A DNA stretch of 63,609 nucleotides from a virus (lineage: Duplodnaviria; Caudoviricetes). This document shows, piece after piece, positions 8,257 to 17,392 of the stretch. Under the pieces are notes generated by a model. The model was not told the origin of the DNA, did not search any database, and saw only the letters and a program-made list of their open reading frames with translations. The stretch covers positions 1 through 63,609 of IMG/VR virus record IMGVR_UViG_3300037461_000542; one strand, given 5' to 3'. The first letter of the stretch is position 1. Every line of letters starts with the position of its first letter. A program made the translations under genes and the position numbers.

Positions 8257-8628
8257 ATGAAAACAGCTAAATATGTTCTTGCAGTTTTGCTTTTGGGTTT
8301 TGTGTGCATAGGCGCAATGTGTCAGCAACAGATCCTAACGCCGGATAAGATGACAGTTAAGCAAAGGGCTACGTTTGCAATGAACTTGTATTCCAATGCC
8401 TACGATAACTATCTGGCTCAGTTCGCTGCAACACCTCAACCTATTACTGGAGCTACGAAGGAATATTTTCAAGCTTACAAACAGATGATGGAAGTTGCGT
8501 ATCCTATCGTTACTACCTATAGTCAGATTGCTGTAATTGGTGGGACTCCATCTCCTGAACAGGAGCAGGCAATTTTAACCCTCATCTATCAGATGCAGGC
8601 TATTCTTATGAAAGGGATGGTGAAATAA
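8257..8628 (+). CDS. Putative lipoprotein / exported protein
   Basis: Signal MKTAKYVLAVLLLGFVCIGAM-C with a lipobox-like Cys and a helical body. Confidence 0.55.
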   Translation: MKTAKYVLAVLLLGFVCIGAMCQQQILTPDKMTVKQRATFAMNLYSNAYDNYLAQFAATPQPITGATKEYFQAYKQMMEVAYPIVTTYSQIAVIGGTPSPEQEQAILTLIYQMQAILMKGMVK

Positions 8629-8629
8629 T

Positions 8630-8815
8630 ATGGCTGCTGACGCGATTGTTGTTGCAGGAATTACCGCAGGTACTTCAATTATTATCCAGGGCATGCAGGC
8701 ATGGATTGAAATGGCGAGAGCCTTGGGGCAGACTGAGGCGGAGATTGATGCTGCTTTTGTTGCTGCTAAACTCAGGTTTGAATCGAAGACTCCCGATAAA
8801 TTGCCCAATGCGTGA
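8630..8815 (+). CDS. Small hydrophobic protein
   Basis: 61 aa with an N-terminal hydrophobic stretch; coupled to neighbours. Confidence 0.6.
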   Translation: MAADAIVVAGITAGTSIIIQGMQAWIEMARALGQTEAEIDAAFVAAKLRFESKTPDKLPNA

Positions 8816-8820
8816 GGTGT

Positions 8821-9021
8821 ATGATGGCAGAAACTAAGTTTGAAATTGTTTTGAATAAGTTGAAACAGCCTTCTACTATTAAGGGATTGCTTGGTATTGC
8901 CAGCATCGTTGCTCTTCGATTTGGGGTTACTCTTGATCTCACAGTGGAAGACTTGCAGACTATTGTAGAAAGCGCAGCGGCTCTTTATTTTAGCATCGCC
9001 ATTCTGTGGCAGAAGTCGTAG
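8821..9021 (+). CDS. Putative holin-like membrane protein
   Basis: KLKQPSTIKGLLGIASIVAL...AAALYFSIAILW: two hydrophobic segments. RBS GAGGTG. Confidence 0.5.
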   Translation: MMAETKFEIVLNKLKQPSTIKGLLGIASIVALRFGVTLDLTVEDLQTIVESAAALYFSIAILWQKS

Positions 9022-9023
9022 CT

Positions 9024-9374
9024 ATGGAAAACAAACACGGTCTCGTCGCTCATCCCACATTTTGGAAGTTGAGTGATGAATACATCTCAAAACAGTACGA
9101 GGGGTGAGGCCCAGGTAAATTTGGGGACAAGGTTGTTCCAGATACTTTCTACGGTCTTTCTGTTAAGGTGGCTTGACAGATCCACGATCATGATTATGAG
9201 GTGGGTCGCACCTTACAGGAAAAGATGGAAGCTGATTGTAGATTGTTGCACAATCTCTACATAATGATTCAGAGTGAACCCACCAATTGGCTTACATCTC
9301 TTCGTTATGAAAGGGCAATTAATTATTACGAAATGGTTTCGATATTTGGACGGGGAGCGTTCTTCAAAGATTAG
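9024..9374 (+). CDS. Phospholipase A2-like protein with two in-frame UGA codons (candidate selenoprotein, Sec28 and Sec51)
   Basis: MENKHGLVAHPTFWKLSDEYISKQYEG[U]GPGKFGDKVVPDTFYGLSVKVA[U]QIHDHDYEVGRTLQEKMEADCRLLHNL...AINYYEMVSIFGRGAFFKD. TGA at 9105 and 9174 lie at the Cys positions of the G-C-G-P-G and A-C-x-x-H-D-x-x-Y motifs. The frame fills the gap between the holin-like gene and terL. Confidence 0.8.
9120..9142 (+). promoter_or_regulatory. SECIS-like hairpin 1
   Basis: TTT(G)GGGACA-AGGT-TGTTCCAGA. The AGGU loop begins after a 22-nt spacer from UGA 9105-9107. Confidence 0.6.
9197..9215 (+). promoter_or_regulatory. SECIS-like hairpin 2
   Basis: TGAGGTG-GGTCG-CACCTTA, a 7-bp stem. The GGUCG loop begins after a 27-nt spacer from UGA 9174-9176. 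Confidence 0.65.
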
Positions 9375-9382
9375 GGGGATCT

Positions 9383-10993
9383 ATGGGAGTTACTGAACGT
9401 CAGATTTTAGAATTGACTTCAGCGTTAGATTGTTTCACATGGCTTACTCAGAACAATATAACGCTGTCTCATGGCCCCTGGAGATTGAAGGGACATGAAT
9501 ATCAACTGGCTTGGTTACAGGAAACTGCAAAGGAACAATGTTTTATTAAAGGCGCTCAGACAGGATGCACTGAAGCATTGGTTCTTCGAACCTTACATGG
9601 TATGATCTACCAGCATTATCCGCAGGGAGCTGTATATCTATTCCCAACACGAGATGATGTCAAGGATTTCTCGAAGGCACGGTTTGATCCTCTGATTGCT
9701 GGCAACGGTTGTATTTCCAACCATGTTCAAAACACAGATGCAACAAACATTAAACAGATAGGTCGTGCGTTTCTTTATCTTCGTGGTGCTCGTATCACAA
9801 AGAATATTTCAGGAGCCAAGAAGAGTTCATCTCAATTGAAATCAATTCCAGTAGATCGTGTGGTCTTCGACGAACGAGATGAGATGGACGATTCGATGGT
9901 AGAGTTGGCGAGGGAACGTGTATCCCATTCGGATGTTCAAGAAATTATCTCCCTTGGTACACCTACTATTCCAGACTATGGAATTGATAAGATGTATCAG
10001 GAATCGGATCAACGAGTATGGATGATTCGGTGTGAGAAGTGCAACAAGTTTACTTGTCTTGAACTGGAATTTCCAACCTGTATAATGCGAAGACCCGATG
10101 GAGAAGCGTATCGTGGATGTGTTCATTGTCAGGAAGAGATATTTCCACACAACGGACAATGGGTTCCACAGTATCCTGGAAGAGAAAAGGTAGGTTGGTG
10201 GATTTCACAACTGAATTCATTGTACGTTAAACCTGGGTACATTCTCGATCTATACGAAGACCCACCCAATGGGGATCTCTCAGAAGTAATGAACTCCAAG
10301 TTGGGTCGAGCCTACATACCAGCAGAAAATAGATTGACCTCTGCTGAAGTCTACGCTTGTTGTGGTAAGGATCCAATGTTAATGAAGCACGATGGTCCTT
10401 GTGGTATGGGTGTTGATGTTGGGAGGGAACTCCACGTTACGATTGGATACAGAACCAGTAGAAGAAATGTTAAGATAATCTACATAGGTCGAGTATCTTC
10501 TTTTACAGACCTACACGATCTCGGTAAAAGGTATGGAGTTAGGAGTTCTGTAATAGATCTGAAACCCGAGACAAGAAAGGTGAGGGACTTCCAAACTTCT
10601 GAACCATACTCGATTTTTGGGTGTGACTACGTAGAAACCAGAACTGGTATGACGGCGTGGGATGAGAAAGAACGGGTTATTAAATGCAACCGCACAGAGA
10701 TCTGCGATATGTCCCATGATCTTGTTACTGAACCGGGGAGATTGGAACTACCTCGTAGAAACACAGAAATTGATCAGTACGTGAGGGAGATGTGCAACAT
10801 CGCAAAGGTGTTGGAAGAAGATATGGACACGGGCAATCGTGTGTATCGCTACAAAAAATTAGGCCCGGATCACTATCGACACTCTACTAACTATTTATTG
10901 TTGGCTTGTGATAGAATAGGATCCGTCAACGATAGTAAACTAATTGGACTTTATTATGATCGCCGTAGACGGCGTAACTTTATGACTGCATAA
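9383..10993 (+). CDS. terL: Terminase large subunit, lambda GpA-like
   Basis: Walker A-like KGAQTGCTE, Walker B VVFDERDEM, coupling motif LGTPT, Zn site CEKC..CVHC, nuclease motifs GMGVDVG and DHYRHS. Confidence 0.9.
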   Translation: MGVTERQILELTSALDCFTWLTQNNITLSHGPWRLKGHEYQLAWLQETAKEQCFIKGAQTGCTEALVLRTLHGMIYQHYPQGAVYLFPTRDDVKDFSKARFDPLIAGNGCISNHVQNTDATNIKQIGRAFLYLRGARITKNISGAKKSSSQLKSIPVDRVVFDERDEMDDSMVELARERVSHSDVQEIISLGTPTIPDYGIDKMYQESDQRVWMIRCEKCNKFTCLELEFPTCIMRRPDGEAYRGCVHCQEEIFPHNGQWVPQYPGREKVGWWISQLNSLYVKPGYILDLYEDPPNGDLSEVMNSKLGRAYIPAENRLTSAEVYACCGKDPMLMKHDGPCGMGVDVGRELHVTIGYRTSRRNVKIIYIGRVSSFTDLHDLGKRYGVRSSVIDLKPETRKVRDFQTSEPYSIFGCDYVETRTGMTAWDEKERVIKCNRTEICDMSHDLVTEPGRLELPRRNTEIDQYVREMCNIAKVLEEDMDTGNRVYRYKKLGPDHYRHSTNYLLLACDRIGSVNDSKLIGLYYDRRRRRNFMTA

Positions 10994-15018: not shown

Positions 15019-15311
15019 GTGCTAACTCTCGTCTGCCCACTAACTGATAGGAGATTTATGGAAGTAAAAGATCAGGAAGTTTGGAAAACAACCGGAAGAA
15101 TTGCTGGGACACCCTAACGTATAGTCGAGGGCAATCAGCAGCCGATCCTCTGAAAGATTATAAAAGTAAGAGGCAGGTTCACAGACTAATCCCTGAGATA
15201 AATCAATCAATAATGGGAACACGAGTATCCGGGCCGAAAGGTAAGATATAGTCGGAACTTTAAGGAAACTTAAAGAAGTAAAATTTAAATAATTTTACGA
15301 TAACATATTTG
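15019..15311 (+). ncRNA. Group I self-splicing intron (293 nt, no full-length ORF)
   Basis: Core elements P AATTGCTGGGA (15099), Q AATCAGCAG (15133), R GTTCACAGACTA (15177), S AAGATATAGTC (15243). P1 GCAGAU/GUCUGC with U.G at 15018/15031, P3 CCGGA/TCCGG, P8 GCC-GAAA-GGT, P9 CTTTAAG-GAAA-CTTAAAG, terminal G at 15311. Confidence 0.93.
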
Positions 15312-16306: not shown

Positions 16307-17101
16307 ATGGCTGCTGGTCTTAATTTTAAATTCACGACTTCTTCTGGTGAGACTATCGACCTCACCTCTACTGCCACCAACCCGGATGCGGTTCCTACCG
16401 CTACTCCCCGTGAGGGTGGGTTTGTTCTTCGCAATCGTTGGAATTGTAACAACCTCTCCGCTGCCAACAAACAGACGTTCGGCCCTTTCTCGGCGTCTAT
16501 CACGGCTTCTGCGAAGAGTGCCAACATTATCAAGGTTCTGAAAGTTCCTGAGAGAACTTTGGTGAAGGCTCCTGTTGAGGTATTTGCTGTGGCGTCTGAA
16601 ACTATTCCCGGTCACGCCACCCTTGGAGCTGCTACGAAAGCGTCTTTGAACTCTGCTGGTGCTGCTGGTGTTCTCGGCTTCACCGCTTTGGCGTATAAGA
16701 CTCCTTCTCATGTTGCTGCGTCTACTGTTCGTTTTGTTGGAACGACTCTCAACGGGCAGACTGTCACTGCTGGTTGTGCTCTTGGTGGAGTTCCCATTGC
16801 CAAATTTGATTCGCATGGTGGTGGGTTCGATACGGGTCTTGTTGAGGCGGTTGATGCATCCATGACCGCTCCGGCTCTTGGAATGGTTAATGCAGCGGCT
16901 AATGCTGCGTCGGCGAAATACACCGCTGTTACGGGTTTGTATTTCCCGTATGGTGGTTACGTTACTATGACTCTTGGCCCCAACAACACCGCATTGGGTG
17001 CAATGGCTTCGTCCAAGGGTGCTTCTCAGGCGAAAGGTCTGTATGGCTACATGACCGGCACTTGGGAAGTTCAGGCTGATTGTCAGTACGTGCCTGAGTG
17101 A
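16307..17101 (+). CDS. Probable capsid decoration / minor structural protein
   Basis: Ala/Gly/Thr-rich, directly after the capsid gene, RBS AAGGAG. Confidence 0.6.
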   Translation: MAAGLNFKFTTSSGETIDLTSTATNPDAVPTATPREGGFVLRNRWNCNNLSAANKQTFGPFSASITASAKSANIIKVLKVPERTLVKAPVEVFAVASETIPGHATLGAATKASLNSAGAAGVLGFTALAYKTPSHVAASTVRFVGTTLNGQTVTAGCALGGVPIAKFDSHGGGFDTGLVEAVDASMTAPALGMVNAAANAASAKYTAVTGLYFPYGGYVTMTLGPNNTALGAMASSKGASQAKGLYGYMTGTWEVQADCQYVPE

Positions 17102-17114
17102 TCAATGATTGTTG

Positions 17115-17140
17115 AAAGAGGGGCTTCGGCCCCTCTTTTC
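17115..17140 (+). terminator. Rho-independent terminator, cUUCGg loop
   Basis: AAAGAGGGGC-TTCG-GCCCCTCTTTTC after the capsid operon. Confidence 0.75.
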
Positions 17141-17152
17141 AAGGGAGAGAAT

Positions 17153-17392
17153 ATGATTGCGATGCTTGATCGCCACAGTTATATTGATGTGGATAAGATA
17201 GATTGTATCAGTGGGGACTACAGATCTGAGAAAGAAAGTGAATGGGTTACAACTGTTCTCATTGGTGGGTTCTCATTGGAGTACAAGGGTCAAATGGGGA
17301 GAGAGATAATGAATGCGTATGAGTGGAAGTTTAAAACCTCCACCTACGATTTTATCACAGGGTCGTCCACCTATAAACGGGCGATAAAGTAA
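17153..17392 (+). CDS. Hypothetical protein
   Basis: ATG 17153 after AAGGGAGAG, downstream of the hairpin. Confidence 0.6.
   Translation: MIAMLDRHSYIDVDKIDCISGDYRSEKESEWVTTVLIGGFSLEYKGQMGREIMNAYEWKFKTSTYDFITGSSTYKRAIK

What the first reader, a model, noticed from the sequence alone, without database searches (positions are those of the whole stretch)
9024..9374. Hidden phage-encoded double-selenocysteine protein (PLA2-like) with two SECIS-like hairpins
Seen: the apparent 361-nt gap between the holin-like gene (stop 9021) and terL (9383) is filled almost exactly by one frame, ATG 9024 to TAG 9374. It is broken only by TGA at codons 28 (YEG*GPG) and 51 (VA*QIHDHDY). Each TGA is followed by a hairpin whose GGU-containing loop starts 22 and 27 nt downstream. 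Established: GCG(P)G and C-x-x-H-D-x-x-Y followed by A-D are the Ca-loop and His-Asp catalytic motifs of secreted-PLA2-like folds. Bacterial SECIS elements are in-CDS hairpins just after UGA with a G-containing loop (E. coli fdhF loop AGGUCU). Inference: two independent Cys-to-TGA changes at conserved positions with the rest of the frame intact point to Sec recoding by host SelB/SelC rather than decay. I know of no described phage selenoprotein of this fold, but that needs a literature check.
Basis: partly seen in the sequence, partly recalled or inferred. Interest (0 to 1): 0.95.

Follow-up and report, generated by a model that had tools for sequence, protein, structure and literature searches.

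The report
Phage phospholipase gene with two selenocysteines
A small phospholipase-like gene of an uncultured wetland phage reads through two UGA "stops" that sit exactly on a conserved cysteine pair, each followed by the kind of RNA hairpin bacteria use to insert selenocysteine, so it most likely encodes a selenium-containing phage protein.

Summary
One frame (ATG 9024 to TAG 9374) fills the gap before terL and is broken only by TGA at codons 28 and 51.

The protein belongs to a large, mostly viral family related to prokaryotic and fungal phospholipase A2. In 158 aligned members the two sites are Cys in 143 and 145, and they are lost together, which indicates a disulfide pair.

DNA-pattern scans of IMG/VR found 10 further distinct homologues on 13 contigs with TGA at these codons:
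- six have TGA at both sites;
- four have TGA at site 1 and TGC at site 2;
- all have intact frames, at 36-68% identity between lineages.

One close pair gives pN/pS 0.06. TGA is an ordinary stop elsewhere in this phage.

A hairpin meeting the published bacterial SECIS geometry follows every TGA and is weak or absent after Cys codons. The four TGA/Cys genes have it only at site 1.

Host-supplied selenocysteine insertion is therefore the best explanation (about 0.75). It is not proven: the host and its Sec genes are unknown, the phage carries none, and the site-1 hairpin in this window is weak on its own.

The scan has noted PLA2-like phage selenoprotein candidates before on other DNA. I found no published phage selenoprotein.

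The parts
9024..9374 (+). PLA2-like gene of 116 codons plus TAG stop. It reads through two UGA codons. Its start lies 2 nt after the stop of the upstream small membrane-protein ORF.
   Evidence: Searches give the frame. Searches give the family. Searches give the PLA2 relationship.
9105..9107 (+). UGA 1 (codon 28). It lies at the family's near-invariant Cys of the G-C-G-P motif.
   Evidence: Cys in 143 of 158. TGA at this codon in 10 other distinct phage genes.
9124..9139 (+). SECIS-like hairpin 1: GGGACA / loop AGGU / UGUUCC, with the loop 22 nt after UGA 1. The extended minimum-free-energy stem spans 9119-9143.
   Evidence: The same hairpin register occurs in 11 of 11 TGA-bearing genes, with 97% of cells paired.
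9174..9176 (+). UGA 2 (codon 51). It lies at the Cys of C-x-x-H-D, the covarying partner of codon 28.
   Evidence: Cys in 145 of 158, and non-Cys states co-occur with non-Cys at site 1. TGA here in 6 other distinct genes.
9197..9215 (+). SECIS-like hairpin 2: UGAGGUG / loop GGUCG / CACCUUA, with the loop 27 nt after UGA 2. A competing minimum-free-energy hairpin lies at 9179-9207 with loop GAUU.
9159..9180 (+). Strongest simple hairpin of the gene (9 bp, loop GUGG, -10.2 kcal/mol). It spans UGA 2. Its role is unknown.
8812..9021 (+). Upstream small ORF (69 aa from GTG 8812, or 66 aa from ATG 8821) with a hydrophobic stretch, holin-like by eye only. Two more small ORFs precede it (8257-8628 and 8630-8815).
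   Evidence: No informative family was found, so 'holin' is not shown.
9383..10993 (+). Terminase large subunit gene immediately downstream.
   Evidence: tblastn hits lie under annotated terminase large subunits, best 26-27% identity.

Best explanation
The frame 9024-9374 is a functional late gene, probably lysis-associated, of an uncultured tailed phage. It encodes a 116-residue enzyme-like protein of the prokaryotic/fungal phospholipase A2 superfamily. Its two in-frame UGA codons are not stops. Each is recoded as selenocysteine by the host's SelB and Sec-tRNA(Sec), guided by a short stem-loop inside the coding sequence 22 and 27 nt downstream (a bacterial-type SECIS).

The two Sec residues replace the two partners of the family's conserved disulfide. 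The mature protein would therefore carry a diselenide where relatives carry a disulfide. Relatives with UGA at site 1 only would carry a selenylsulfide.

Shown here:
- the UGAs are real;
- they sit on a covarying Cys pair;
- they are retained in many divergent phage lineages under purifying selection;
- they are accompanied by hairpins that track the UGA state.

Inferred:
- that the inserted residue is Sec;
- that host SelB reads the hairpins;
- that a diselenide forms;
- that the protein acts on membranes at lysis.
For: 1. Cys/UGA alignment. In 158 aligned family proteins site 1 is Cys in 143 and site 2 in 145. Of the 12 full-length rows with a non-Cys residue other than W at either site, 11 are non-Cys at both (A/A in 6, others M/G, V/A, G/F, A/F). 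This marks a bonded pair.

2. Recurrent UGA.
- IMG/VR pattern scans returned 10 stretches (6 family genes, 4 chance hits), 13 stretches (all 13 family genes) and 2 stretches.
- These give 10 distinct TGA-bearing genes on 13 contigs besides the window.
- TGA at both sites: L030, L037 (=L038), L040, L041, L042, L043.
- TGA at site 1 and TGC at site 2: L027 (=L033, L035), L029, L036, L039.
- All frames are otherwise open and keep the family motifs. Lineages are 36-68% identical.

3. Selection.
- L042 versus L043: 20 synonymous and 5 non-synonymous differences, pN/pS 0.061. Downstream of site 2 the counts are 12 and 2.
- Population variants of this window's gene in runs X5 and X6 change 9 codons: 8 synonymous and one I99V.

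4. A context-dependent code.
- TGA ends 22 of 78 crude ORFs of this phage, including the portal gene and the 2433-aa gene.
- TGA is also the true stop of the L027 and L037 homologues themselves.

5. Hairpins track UGA.
- All 11 site-1 and all 7 site-2 hairpins have a 3-6 nt loop, a 5-9 bp stem, a G in the first two loop positions, and a loop start at nt 25-31. This fits criteria i-iii of the bacterial SECIS consensus quoted in PMC13188914 (passages read).
- Best-hairpin dG has median -9.2 after TGA (n=11) against -2.0 after Cys codons (n=7) at site 1. At site 2 it is -6.5 (n=7) against -0.6 (n=11). One-sided Mann-Whitney p is 0.0006 and 0.0003.
- The four TGA/TGC genes have minimum free energy -8.2 to -11.4 after site 1 but only -1.3 to -2.9 after site 2.
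- All 11 site-1 and all 7 site-2 TGA sequences fold better than the mean of their own synonymous recodings.
- Site-2 stems differ completely between lineages: GAGGUG/CACCUU, UAUCUC/GAGAUA, UAUGCC/GGCGUA, AAUACGC/GCGUAUU, GGACG/CGUCC.
- The site-1 hairpin is the strongest simple hairpin of the whole gene in 8 of 11 genes.

6. The Cys-to-UGA state is scattered on the family tree: 8 changes by parsimony on 89 rows. Such scatter is what I recall of Sec/Cys interchange in selenoprotein families.
Against: - The host is unknown, so the presence of selA, selB, selC and selD cannot be checked. The phage has none of them. Ten other TGA-bearing viral records have no tRNA-Sec.
- In this window the site-1 hairpin is weak. 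The simple hairpin is -5.3 kcal/mol and nt 13-42 fold at -7.1, above the consensus limit of -7.5. Its z-score is -0.3 against synonymous recodings, and 5% of all TGA triplets in the genome do as well. Single-sequence folds do not beat shuffles.
- The site-1 stem shows no two-sided compensatory change in its six core pairs (RNAalifold adds a seventh pair, columns 25-30, with changes on both sides). It is built from conserved Gly-Asp and Val-Pro codons, so part of its conservation is protein-driven. The only extra evidence is GGG in 11 of 11 and GTY in 11 of 11 while other four-fold sites vary.
- The Mann-Whitney tests treat related sequences as independent. The Cys-codon controls are few (7 and 11) and more distant.
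- Sec at a structural rather than redox-catalytic cysteine pair is atypical for known selenoproteins (my recollection).
- Two Sec codons in one short mRNA should lower the yield.
- No protein or RNA evidence exists.
Confidence: 0.75

Rival explanations
1. The UGAs are translated, but by SECIS-independent leaky read-through with a near-cognate tRNA (Trp, Cys or Arg). The hairpins act only as read-through stimulators, and the gene is kept at a very low, safe expression level.
For: UGA retention and purifying selection fit any translated reading. Hairpins after stop codons could promote read-through. A membrane-damaging enzyme might benefit from tight dosage. No Sec machinery is in hand.
Against: - In all 11 genes UGA occurs at the two paired Cys codons and at no other internal codon.
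- A dosage device could sit at any codon. Trp or Arg at a bonded Cys pair would break the pair that 143-145 of 158 relatives keep.
- Loop composition and spacing fit the SelB-type consensus in 18 of 18 hairpins.
Confidence: 0.1
2. The UGA plus hairpin is read by a Sec-type pathway that delivers cysteine. Such a pathway would be a tRNA-Sec-like Cys-accepting tRNA with a SelB-like factor, as I recall being reported for some bacteria. Alternatively Cys is inserted when selenium is scarce.
For: This gives the same cis-signals as Sec insertion. Cys is the ancestral residue at both sites.
Against: There is no evidence here for such a host system. If Cys were the product, a TGC or TGT codon would do the same more cheaply, so long-term retention of UGA in many lineages would be unexplained.
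Confidence: 0.07
3. The gene is a recently inactivated pseudogene: two nonsense mutations (TGY to TGA) in a decaying accessory gene.
For: Each TGA is one substitution from a Cys codon. Within this gene alone the coincidence is only 1 in 45. Single-sequence hairpin statistics are weak.
Against: - Ten other distinct genes keep TGA at the same codons with synonymous sites near saturation (pS 0.5-0.95) and no other lesion.
- pN/pS is 0.06 in the close pair.
- 8 of 9 changed codons in natural variants of this very gene are synonymous.
Confidence: 0.03
4. The phage or its host uses a genetic code in which TGA is a sense codon (table 4, Trp, or table 25, Gly).
For: The two closest database proteins, P0002 and P0003, were called with W at these sites. 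This suggests a gene caller used table 4 on their short contigs.
Against: - TGA terminates 22 of 78 crude ORFs here. Large genes such as terL, portal and the 2433-aa protein are open under table 11.
- terL and portal are likewise intact in the other TGA-bearing contigs.
- W or G would not fit an invariant Cys pair.
Confidence: 0.01

Closest known systems
Bacterial selenoprotein genes with an in-ORF SECIS read by SelB (prototype E. coli fdhF, recalled; consensus model as quoted in PMC13188914, passages read)
   Same: An in-frame UGA aligned with Cys in homologues. A small stem-loop inside the coding sequence, with the loop 16-37 nt after UGA, a 3-9 nt loop with G in its first two positions, and a stem of at least 4 bp. 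Cys and Sec forms interchange within one family.
   Different: The gene is carried by phages, not by a cellular genome. It has two Sec codons 69 nt apart, each with its own hairpin. The residues form a structural pair rather than a known redox-active site. The trans-acting machinery is not in the genome that carries the gene.
Prokaryotic and fungal secreted phospholipase A2 (Pfam PF09056; Streptomyces violaceoruber 1FAZ, Tuber borchii 4AUP)
   Same: - The family profile hits 1faz, 4aup, 7ygk and 8k1w at E 3e-8 to 1e-4 over residues 44-116, including C-x-x-H-D...Y and the later Asp.
- The Foldseek top hit is 4aup_B, probability 1.00, TM 0.61.
- 27 of 114 members match PF09056 at E <= 0.01.
   Different: - The window protein itself matches no Pfam model.
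- 34 of 114 members match DUF1353 instead.
- I saw no signal peptide by eye in the N-terminus.
- The family is mostly viral.
- Activity is untested.
Cys-form phage homologues, e.g. the 'phospholipase A2 domain protein' of Vibrio phage 1.097.O (MG592470, AUR87155.1)
   Same: Same family (33% identity). It also lies beside terL in the packaging and late region.
   Different: It has TGC and TGT at the two sites and no SECIS-like hairpin after them.
SelL, a eukaryotic selenoprotein family with a diselenide in a redox motif (Shchedrina et al. 2007; seen only as a reference entry in PMC2398784; content recalled)
   Same: Two Sec residues positioned to bond with each other.
   Different: There the two Sec lie in a U-x-x-U thioredoxin-like redox motif and use eukaryotic 3'-UTR SECIS elements. 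Here they are 23 residues apart on a structural disulfide pair and use bacterial in-ORF hairpins.
Phage-borne tRNA-Sec genes (Basilisk-like Bacillus phages, PMC6145125; huge wastewater phages, PMC10747093; passages read)
   Same: They link phages with the Sec system.
   Different: Those papers report only the tRNA gene and name no phage selenoprotein. This phage has the converse: a candidate selenoprotein gene and no tRNA-Sec.

Membership tests
Bacterial-type selenoprotein gene (UGA plus in-ORF SECIS) | In-frame UGA aligned with Cys in homologues | tested here: met
   Searches show Cys at both sites in 143 and 145 of 158 proteins and in all 10 Cys-form loci that cover the sites. One search places the UGAs at codons 28 and 51.
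Bacterial-type selenoprotein gene (UGA plus in-ORF SECIS) | UGA retained in divergent homologues, with an intact and selected downstream frame | tested here: met
   Ten other distinct genes. pN/pS 0.061 for L042 versus L043, with 12 synonymous and 2 non-synonymous differences downstream of site 2. 8 of 9 variant codons are synonymous.
Bacterial-type selenoprotein gene (UGA plus in-ORF SECIS) | Stem-loop geometry: 3-9 nt apical loop, 4-16 bp stem, G in the first two loop positions, 16-37 nt from UGA (PMC13188914) | tested here: met
   Window: loop AGGU, 6 bp, 22 nt; loop GGUCG, 7 bp, 27 nt. All 11 site-1 and all 7 site-2 hairpins of the family comply.
Bacterial-type selenoprotein gene (UGA plus in-ORF SECIS) | Minimum free energy <= -7.5 kcal/mol (same consensus) | tested here: inconclusive
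   Site 2: -8.0 for the hairpin and -8.6 for nt 14-48. Site 1: -5.3 for the hairpin, -7.1 for nt 13-42 and -8.0 for 46 nt. The value depends on the stretch folded.
Bacterial-type selenoprotein gene (UGA plus in-ORF SECIS) | Hairpin present with UGA and absent with a Cys codon | tested here: met
   medians -9.2 versus -2.0 at site 1 and -6.5 versus -0.6 at site 2. The four TGA/TGC genes have the hairpin at site 1 only. The test is not corrected for phylogeny.
Bacterial-type selenoprotein gene (UGA plus in-ORF SECIS) | Compensatory base-pair changes in the hairpin | tested here: inconclusive
   Site 1: no two-sided change in the six core pairs, 3 pairs with one-sided changes, 97% paired against 30-71% when slid; the extra closing pair that RNAalifold adds (columns 25-30) changes on both sides in 5 sequences and is broken in 3. 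Site 2: stems are wholly different between lineages at about the same place, but in shifted registers, so no single column-wise count was possible.
Bacterial-type selenoprotein gene (UGA plus in-ORF SECIS) | selA, selB, selC and selD available in the translating cell | not testable with these tools
   The host is unknown: the nearest cultured phage TerL is 26-27% identical. No tRNA-Sec, selB, selD or selA is in the phage. There is no tRNA-Sec in 10 other TGA-bearing viral records.
Bacterial-type selenoprotein gene (UGA plus in-ORF SECIS) | Selenium in the protein | not testable with these tools
   Needs 75Se labelling or mass spectrometry.
Prokaryotic/fungal phospholipase A2 superfamily (PF09056 and relatives) | Significant sequence match to the family model or to solved members | tested here: inconclusive
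   The single sequence matches 0 Pfam families. The family profile hits four PLA2 structures at E 3e-8 to 1e-4. 27 of 114 members match PF09056 at E <= 0.01, best 1.5e-5, and 34 match DUF1353.
Prokaryotic/fungal phospholipase A2 superfamily (PF09056 and relatives) | Same fold | tested here: met
   AlphaFold2 model with pLDDT 91.2. The Foldseek top hit is 4aup_B (probability 1.00, E 8.6e-3, TM 0.61), and the next hit has E 1.9. The Atlas structure search of homologue P0005 reaches a PF09056 cluster at TM 0.66.
Prokaryotic/fungal phospholipase A2 superfamily (PF09056 and relatives) | Catalytic His-Asp in C-x-x-H-D...Y, and a later Asp | tested here: met
   H54 and D55 in 158 of 158, Y58 in 150, D71 in 152. 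They align with the same residues of 1faz and 4aup.
Prokaryotic/fungal phospholipase A2 superfamily (PF09056 and relatives) | Calcium-binding loop at G-C-G-P-G | not tested
The PDB profile alignments begin at residue 44, after this motif.
Prokaryotic/fungal phospholipase A2 superfamily (PF09056 and relatives) | Phospholipase activity | not testable with these tools
   Needs an enzyme assay.
Stop-codon-reassigned phage (TGA as a sense codon, tables 4 or 25) | TGA in frame throughout the genes and rarely used as a stop | tested here: not met
   22 of 78 crude ORFs end in TGA, and the large genes are open under table 11.

The most novel reading that the evidence does not exclude
Phages of selenium-using, probably anaerobic, bacteria have repeatedly swapped the structural disulfide of a lysis-associated phospholipase for a diselenide (Sec-Sec) or a selenylsulfide (Sec-Cys). 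Such a cross-link forms and persists at redox potentials where a disulfide cannot. The enzyme could then fold into its active, cross-linked form inside a reducing cytoplasm or an anoxic habitat without any oxidative-folding system. As a side effect, phage lysis would depend on the host's selenium supply and its SelB. This would be the first structural use of selenocysteine in a viral protein, and it would link trace-element availability to phage burst.
Probability: 0.3. Interest if true: 0.9.

Novelty: new variant of a known kind. Interest (0 to 1): 0.8.

Why it matters
Selenocysteine recoding is known only for cellular genes and a few animal-virus genes (the latter from my recollection). In the papers I could search, phages were credited at most with tRNA-Sec genes (PMC6145125, PMC10747093). 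A 2026 review of the prokaryotic selenoproteome contains no occurrence of the words phage, virus or viral.

If these genes are translated as proposed:
- Phage gene callers systematically truncate or miss a class of genes. Here the locus looks like a 361-nt empty gap.
- Phages exploit their host's Sec machinery, which gives a new marker for host prediction, since the host must be a Sec user.
- The family offers a natural series of Cys/Cys, Sec/Cys and Sec/Sec versions of one small enzyme. That series could test what a diselenide does for a protein outside a redox active site.

Tried and rejected
- **DNA of the closest database homologues.** That their W stands for TGA, and that the 80-aa forms are truncated at TGA, remains my inference.
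- **Metagenome scan**. It used a single peptide pattern and returned only L014, the same contig as L005.
- **First TGA patterns.** They found nothing in viral contigs or genome contigs, because they demanded CAR after the TGA. Looser patterns succeeded.
- **Genome contigs with alignment A1**. It gave only L026, a 10-residue chance match followed by a stop, which I rejected.
- **terL relatives.** The eleven loci L015-L025 contain no homologue of the gene within the DNA held, so synteny with close terL relatives gave nothing.
- **Host search.** The nearest cultured phages are Vibrio phages at 26-27% TerL identity. A profile search of 401 genomes of the phylum of the chance MAG found none. That was a blind sample and shows nothing.
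- **RNA evidence.** No RNA holder was listed by the look-up of sequencing runs. X6 and X8-X10 are labelled RNA-Seq but were guessed to be DNA.
- **Single-sequence folding** did not beat shuffles.
- **TGA stop at 17099-17101.** It has a stronger SECIS-like hairpin than either site, but this is a GC stem followed by a T run, an intrinsic terminator, with a new RBS and ATG after it. I rejected it as a Sec site.
- **Genome-wide list of TGA-interrupted frames**. It was too noisy to use.
- **VIA-align libraries** were not on the machine.
- **Supplementary files** of papers were not consulted. They might list phage-derived sequences among metagenomic selenoprotein candidates (for example PMC2398784 and PMC9402790), which I could not see.

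Rows dropped before counts:
- Duplicates L033 and L035 (=L027), L038 (=L037), L004 (=L003), L009-L011 and L007 (about the same as L008; L007 was kept only) and L014 (=L005).
- The partial loci L001 and L006.
- The tree used 89 rows: 11 TGA genes, 5 Cys loci and P0002-P0074. It left out P0075-P0158, L044 and L045.
Full report
**What is there**

The window is a complete-looking viral record of 63,609 bp with direct terminal repeats. It comes from a wetland metagenome setting.

Between a small upstream ORF (stop TAG 9019-9021) and terL (ATG 9383) lies a 361-nt stretch with no ORF longer than 63 aa under table 11. One frame, ATG 9024 to TAG 9372-9374, spans it. That frame is interrupted only by TGA at 9105-9107 (codon 28) and 9174-9176 (codon 51).

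Both TGAs are present in contigs assembled independently from two other wetland runs, with 0 differences over 8800-9567. No difference is listed at them in a roughly 96%-identical 151-nt contig from a freshwater run.

**What the protein is**

Read with Cys at the two TGAs, the 116-aa product has no Pfam hit of its own. It does have 11 close database homologues. A profile of these finds 1487 representatives at E <= 0.001.

- The family profile matches four solved phospholipases A2 (1faz, 4aup, 7ygk, 8k1w) at E 3e-8 to 1e-4. The match covers C-x-x-H-D...Y and the later Asp.
- An AlphaFold2 model (pLDDT 91.2) has Tuber borchii PLA2 (4aup_B) as its only convincing Foldseek hit: probability 1.00, TM 0.61.
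- 27 of 114 members match PF09056, and 34 match DUF1353, at E <= 0.01.
- A cultured Vibrio phage homologue is annotated as a PLA2 domain protein.
- The Atlas clusters nearest to homologue P0005 are 82-89% viral.

**The two sites are a bonded pair**

In 158 aligned proteins, site 1 is Cys in 143 and site 2 in 145. H54 and D55 are invariant.

I set aside the two W-bearing and the two truncated rows. That leaves 12 rows with a non-Cys residue at one site, and 11 of them lack Cys at both. The exception is P0106, which is H/C. Such coupled loss is what a disulfide pair predicts.

**The decisive comparative result**

All IMG/VR homologues found by protein patterns carry Cys codons. I therefore searched IMG/VR for the motif with TGA written in.

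- These scans returned 10, 13 and 2 stretches.
- 4 of the first 10 were chance matches. All the others are family genes.
- Besides the window there are 10 distinct TGA-bearing genes on 13 contigs.
- Six have TGA at both sites: L030, L037/L038, L040, L041, L042, L043.
- Four have TGA at site 1 and TGC at site 2: L027/L033/L035, L029, L036, L039.
- Every one has an otherwise open frame with the family's motifs.

The lineages are only 36-68% identical in protein, and their synonymous sites are near saturation. The TGAs have therefore been kept for a long time.

In the one close pair (L042/L043, 96% identical) there are 20 synonymous and 5 non-synonymous differences (pN/pS 0.061). Downstream of the second TGA the counts are 12 and 2. 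Natural variants of this window's own gene change 9 codons, 8 of them synonymously.

On an admittedly poorly resolved tree of 89 family members, TGA forms are interleaved with Cys forms. Parsimony needs 8 changes, and starred branches force at least 2-3.

The pattern scans required a TGA, so they say nothing about how common TGA forms are in the family.

**Not a code change, not decay**

TGA ends 22 of 78 crude ORFs in this phage, including the portal gene and the 2433-aa gene. It is also the true terminator of the L027 and L037 homologues themselves. terL and portal genes are intact under table 11 on the other contigs. UGA is therefore read differently according to context.

**Hairpins**

The published bacterial SECIS consensus has four criteria (PMC13188914, Fig. 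2 legend, passages read):
- a 3-9 nt apical loop;
- a 4-16 bp stem;
- a G in the first two loop positions, with 16-37 nt between UGA and loop;
- a minimum free energy of -7.5 kcal/mol or lower.

*Site 1.* All 11 genes have GGGGAY, a 4-6 nt loop, then GUYCC in the same columns. 97% of cells are paired, against 30-71% when the partners are slid. The loop starts at nt 25-26, and G27 is invariant. The stem is made of conserved Gly-Asp and Val-Pro codons and shows no two-sided compensation. Even so, the Gly codon is GGG in 11 of 11 and the Val codon GTY in 11 of 11, while the other four-fold sites nearby vary freely.

*Site 2.* Each of the 7 genes has a 5-8 bp hairpin with its loop starting at nt 26-31 and G in the first two loop positions. 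The stem sequences are unrelated between lineages.

*The hairpins go with the codon.*
- Best simple-hairpin dG has median -9.2 (TGA, n=11) against -2.0 (Cys codon, n=7) at site 1.
- At site 2 it is -6.5 (n=7) against -0.6 (n=11). One-sided Mann-Whitney p is 0.0006 and 0.0003. These p-values ignore relatedness.
- The cleanest control is internal. The four genes with TGA at site 1 and TGC at site 2 fold at -8.2 to -11.4 after site 1 and only -1.3 to -2.9 after site 2.
- The site-1 hairpin is the most stable simple hairpin of the whole gene in 8 of 11 genes. In three of the seven double-TGA genes (L030, L037, L040) the two post-TGA hairpins rank first and second.

*This window taken alone.* Site 2 is good: -8.0, a level reached by 1.7% of all 2235 TGA triplets. 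Site 1 is weak: -5.3, a level reached by 5.0%. Folding against shuffles was not significant.

**Context and likely role**

- The gene starts 2 nt after the stop of the last of three small ORFs (8257-9021). No family could be assigned to those ORFs.
- It sits immediately before terL.
- In L030, L037, L039 and L041 a terminase large subunit of four different PHROG families follows within a few kb.
- In L040 the ORF that abuts the gene is a Peptidase_M15 endolysin.

The gene thus sits at the end of the late region, where lysis genes lie, in unrelated phages. I infer, without a test, a membrane-directed role at lysis.

**What is missing**

- The phage has no tRNA at all, and no tRNA-Sec, selB, selD or selA. 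The ten other viral records have no tRNA-Sec. Any Sec must come from the host.
- The host is unknown.
- There is no expression or protein evidence.
- Sec at a structural pair is unusual for selenoproteins, by my recollection.

**Comparison with what is known**

In mechanism this is the bacterial UGA, SECIS and SelB system. The differences are that the gene is viral, that it carries two Sec codons with separate hairpins, and that they occupy a disulfide pair in a PLA2-type fold.

Literature searches found phage tRNA-Sec reports only, and no phage selenoprotein:
- (listings);
- passages read in 10.64898/2026.04.03.716425, PMC5029168, PMC10747093, PMC13188914, PMC2398784, 10.1101/2022.07.06.499078, PMC6145125 and PMC9784644.

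The library lacks most subscription journals, and supplements were closed.

Earlier notes of this scan record PLA2-like phage genes with UGA at these cysteines in at least five other genomes. They also record other phage selenoprotein candidates. They agree with this report but are AI notes, not independent evidence. I reached the results above before reading them.

**Verdict**

Translation through both UGAs is close to certain (about 0.9). Selenocysteine inserted by host SelB is the best reading (about 0.75). A diselenide, and a role for it in reducing conditions, is an attractive inference that remains untested.

Noticed in passing
window 15022-15275 (+): Rfam group I intron (RF00028, 54.5 bits, E 4e-11, full-length model match) inside the structural-gene region.
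   Followed up: no
window 17099-17145 (+): The TGA stop of the 264-aa ORF is followed by a GC-rich stem with a TTCG loop and a T run, an intrinsic terminator, then an RBS and ATG at 17154. It scored as the best 'SECIS-like' hairpin after any TGA stop in the genome. It is a warning about false positives from hairpin rules alone.
   Followed up: yes
window 9567 (inside terL): Contigs of runs X2 and X4 match the window perfectly up to 9567. Both then continue with the same unlike sequence (loose ends of 161 and 145 nt). This is a co-occurring variant with a different terL continuation or an insertion at that point.
   Followed up: no
window 9094-9128 and 9161-9208 (runs X4 and X2): Short contigs from the same wetland runs match only these most conserved stretches (3 and 7 differences). 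Their flanks translate to family-like sequence, so other PLA2-like phage genes co-occur in these samples. Whether they carry TGA could not be seen.
   Followed up: partly
window 9159-9180 (+): The most stable simple hairpin of the gene (9 bp, -10.2 kcal/mol) has the second UGA in its 3' arm. It might influence access to that codon.
   Followed up: no
L027 (oriented 5335) and L037 (oriented 4150): In these homologues the same gene uses TGA both internally, at the Cys site or sites, and as its real terminator.
   Followed up: yes
L040:6958-7362 (-): A Peptidase_M15_3 endolysin (Pfam E 5e-9; PHROG 894 'endolysin' E 2e-14) overlaps the start of the double-TGA PLA2-like gene. This places that copy in a lysis cassette.
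   Followed up: partly
L030 (oriented 780-1170): This double-TGA homologue has lost the Tyr of H-D-x-x-Y (it reads HDFEV). Like the other members of its clade (L037, L042, L043) it is about three residues shorter after that motif than most of the family. It may be diverging in function or beginning to decay, yet it keeps both hairpins.
   Followed up: partly
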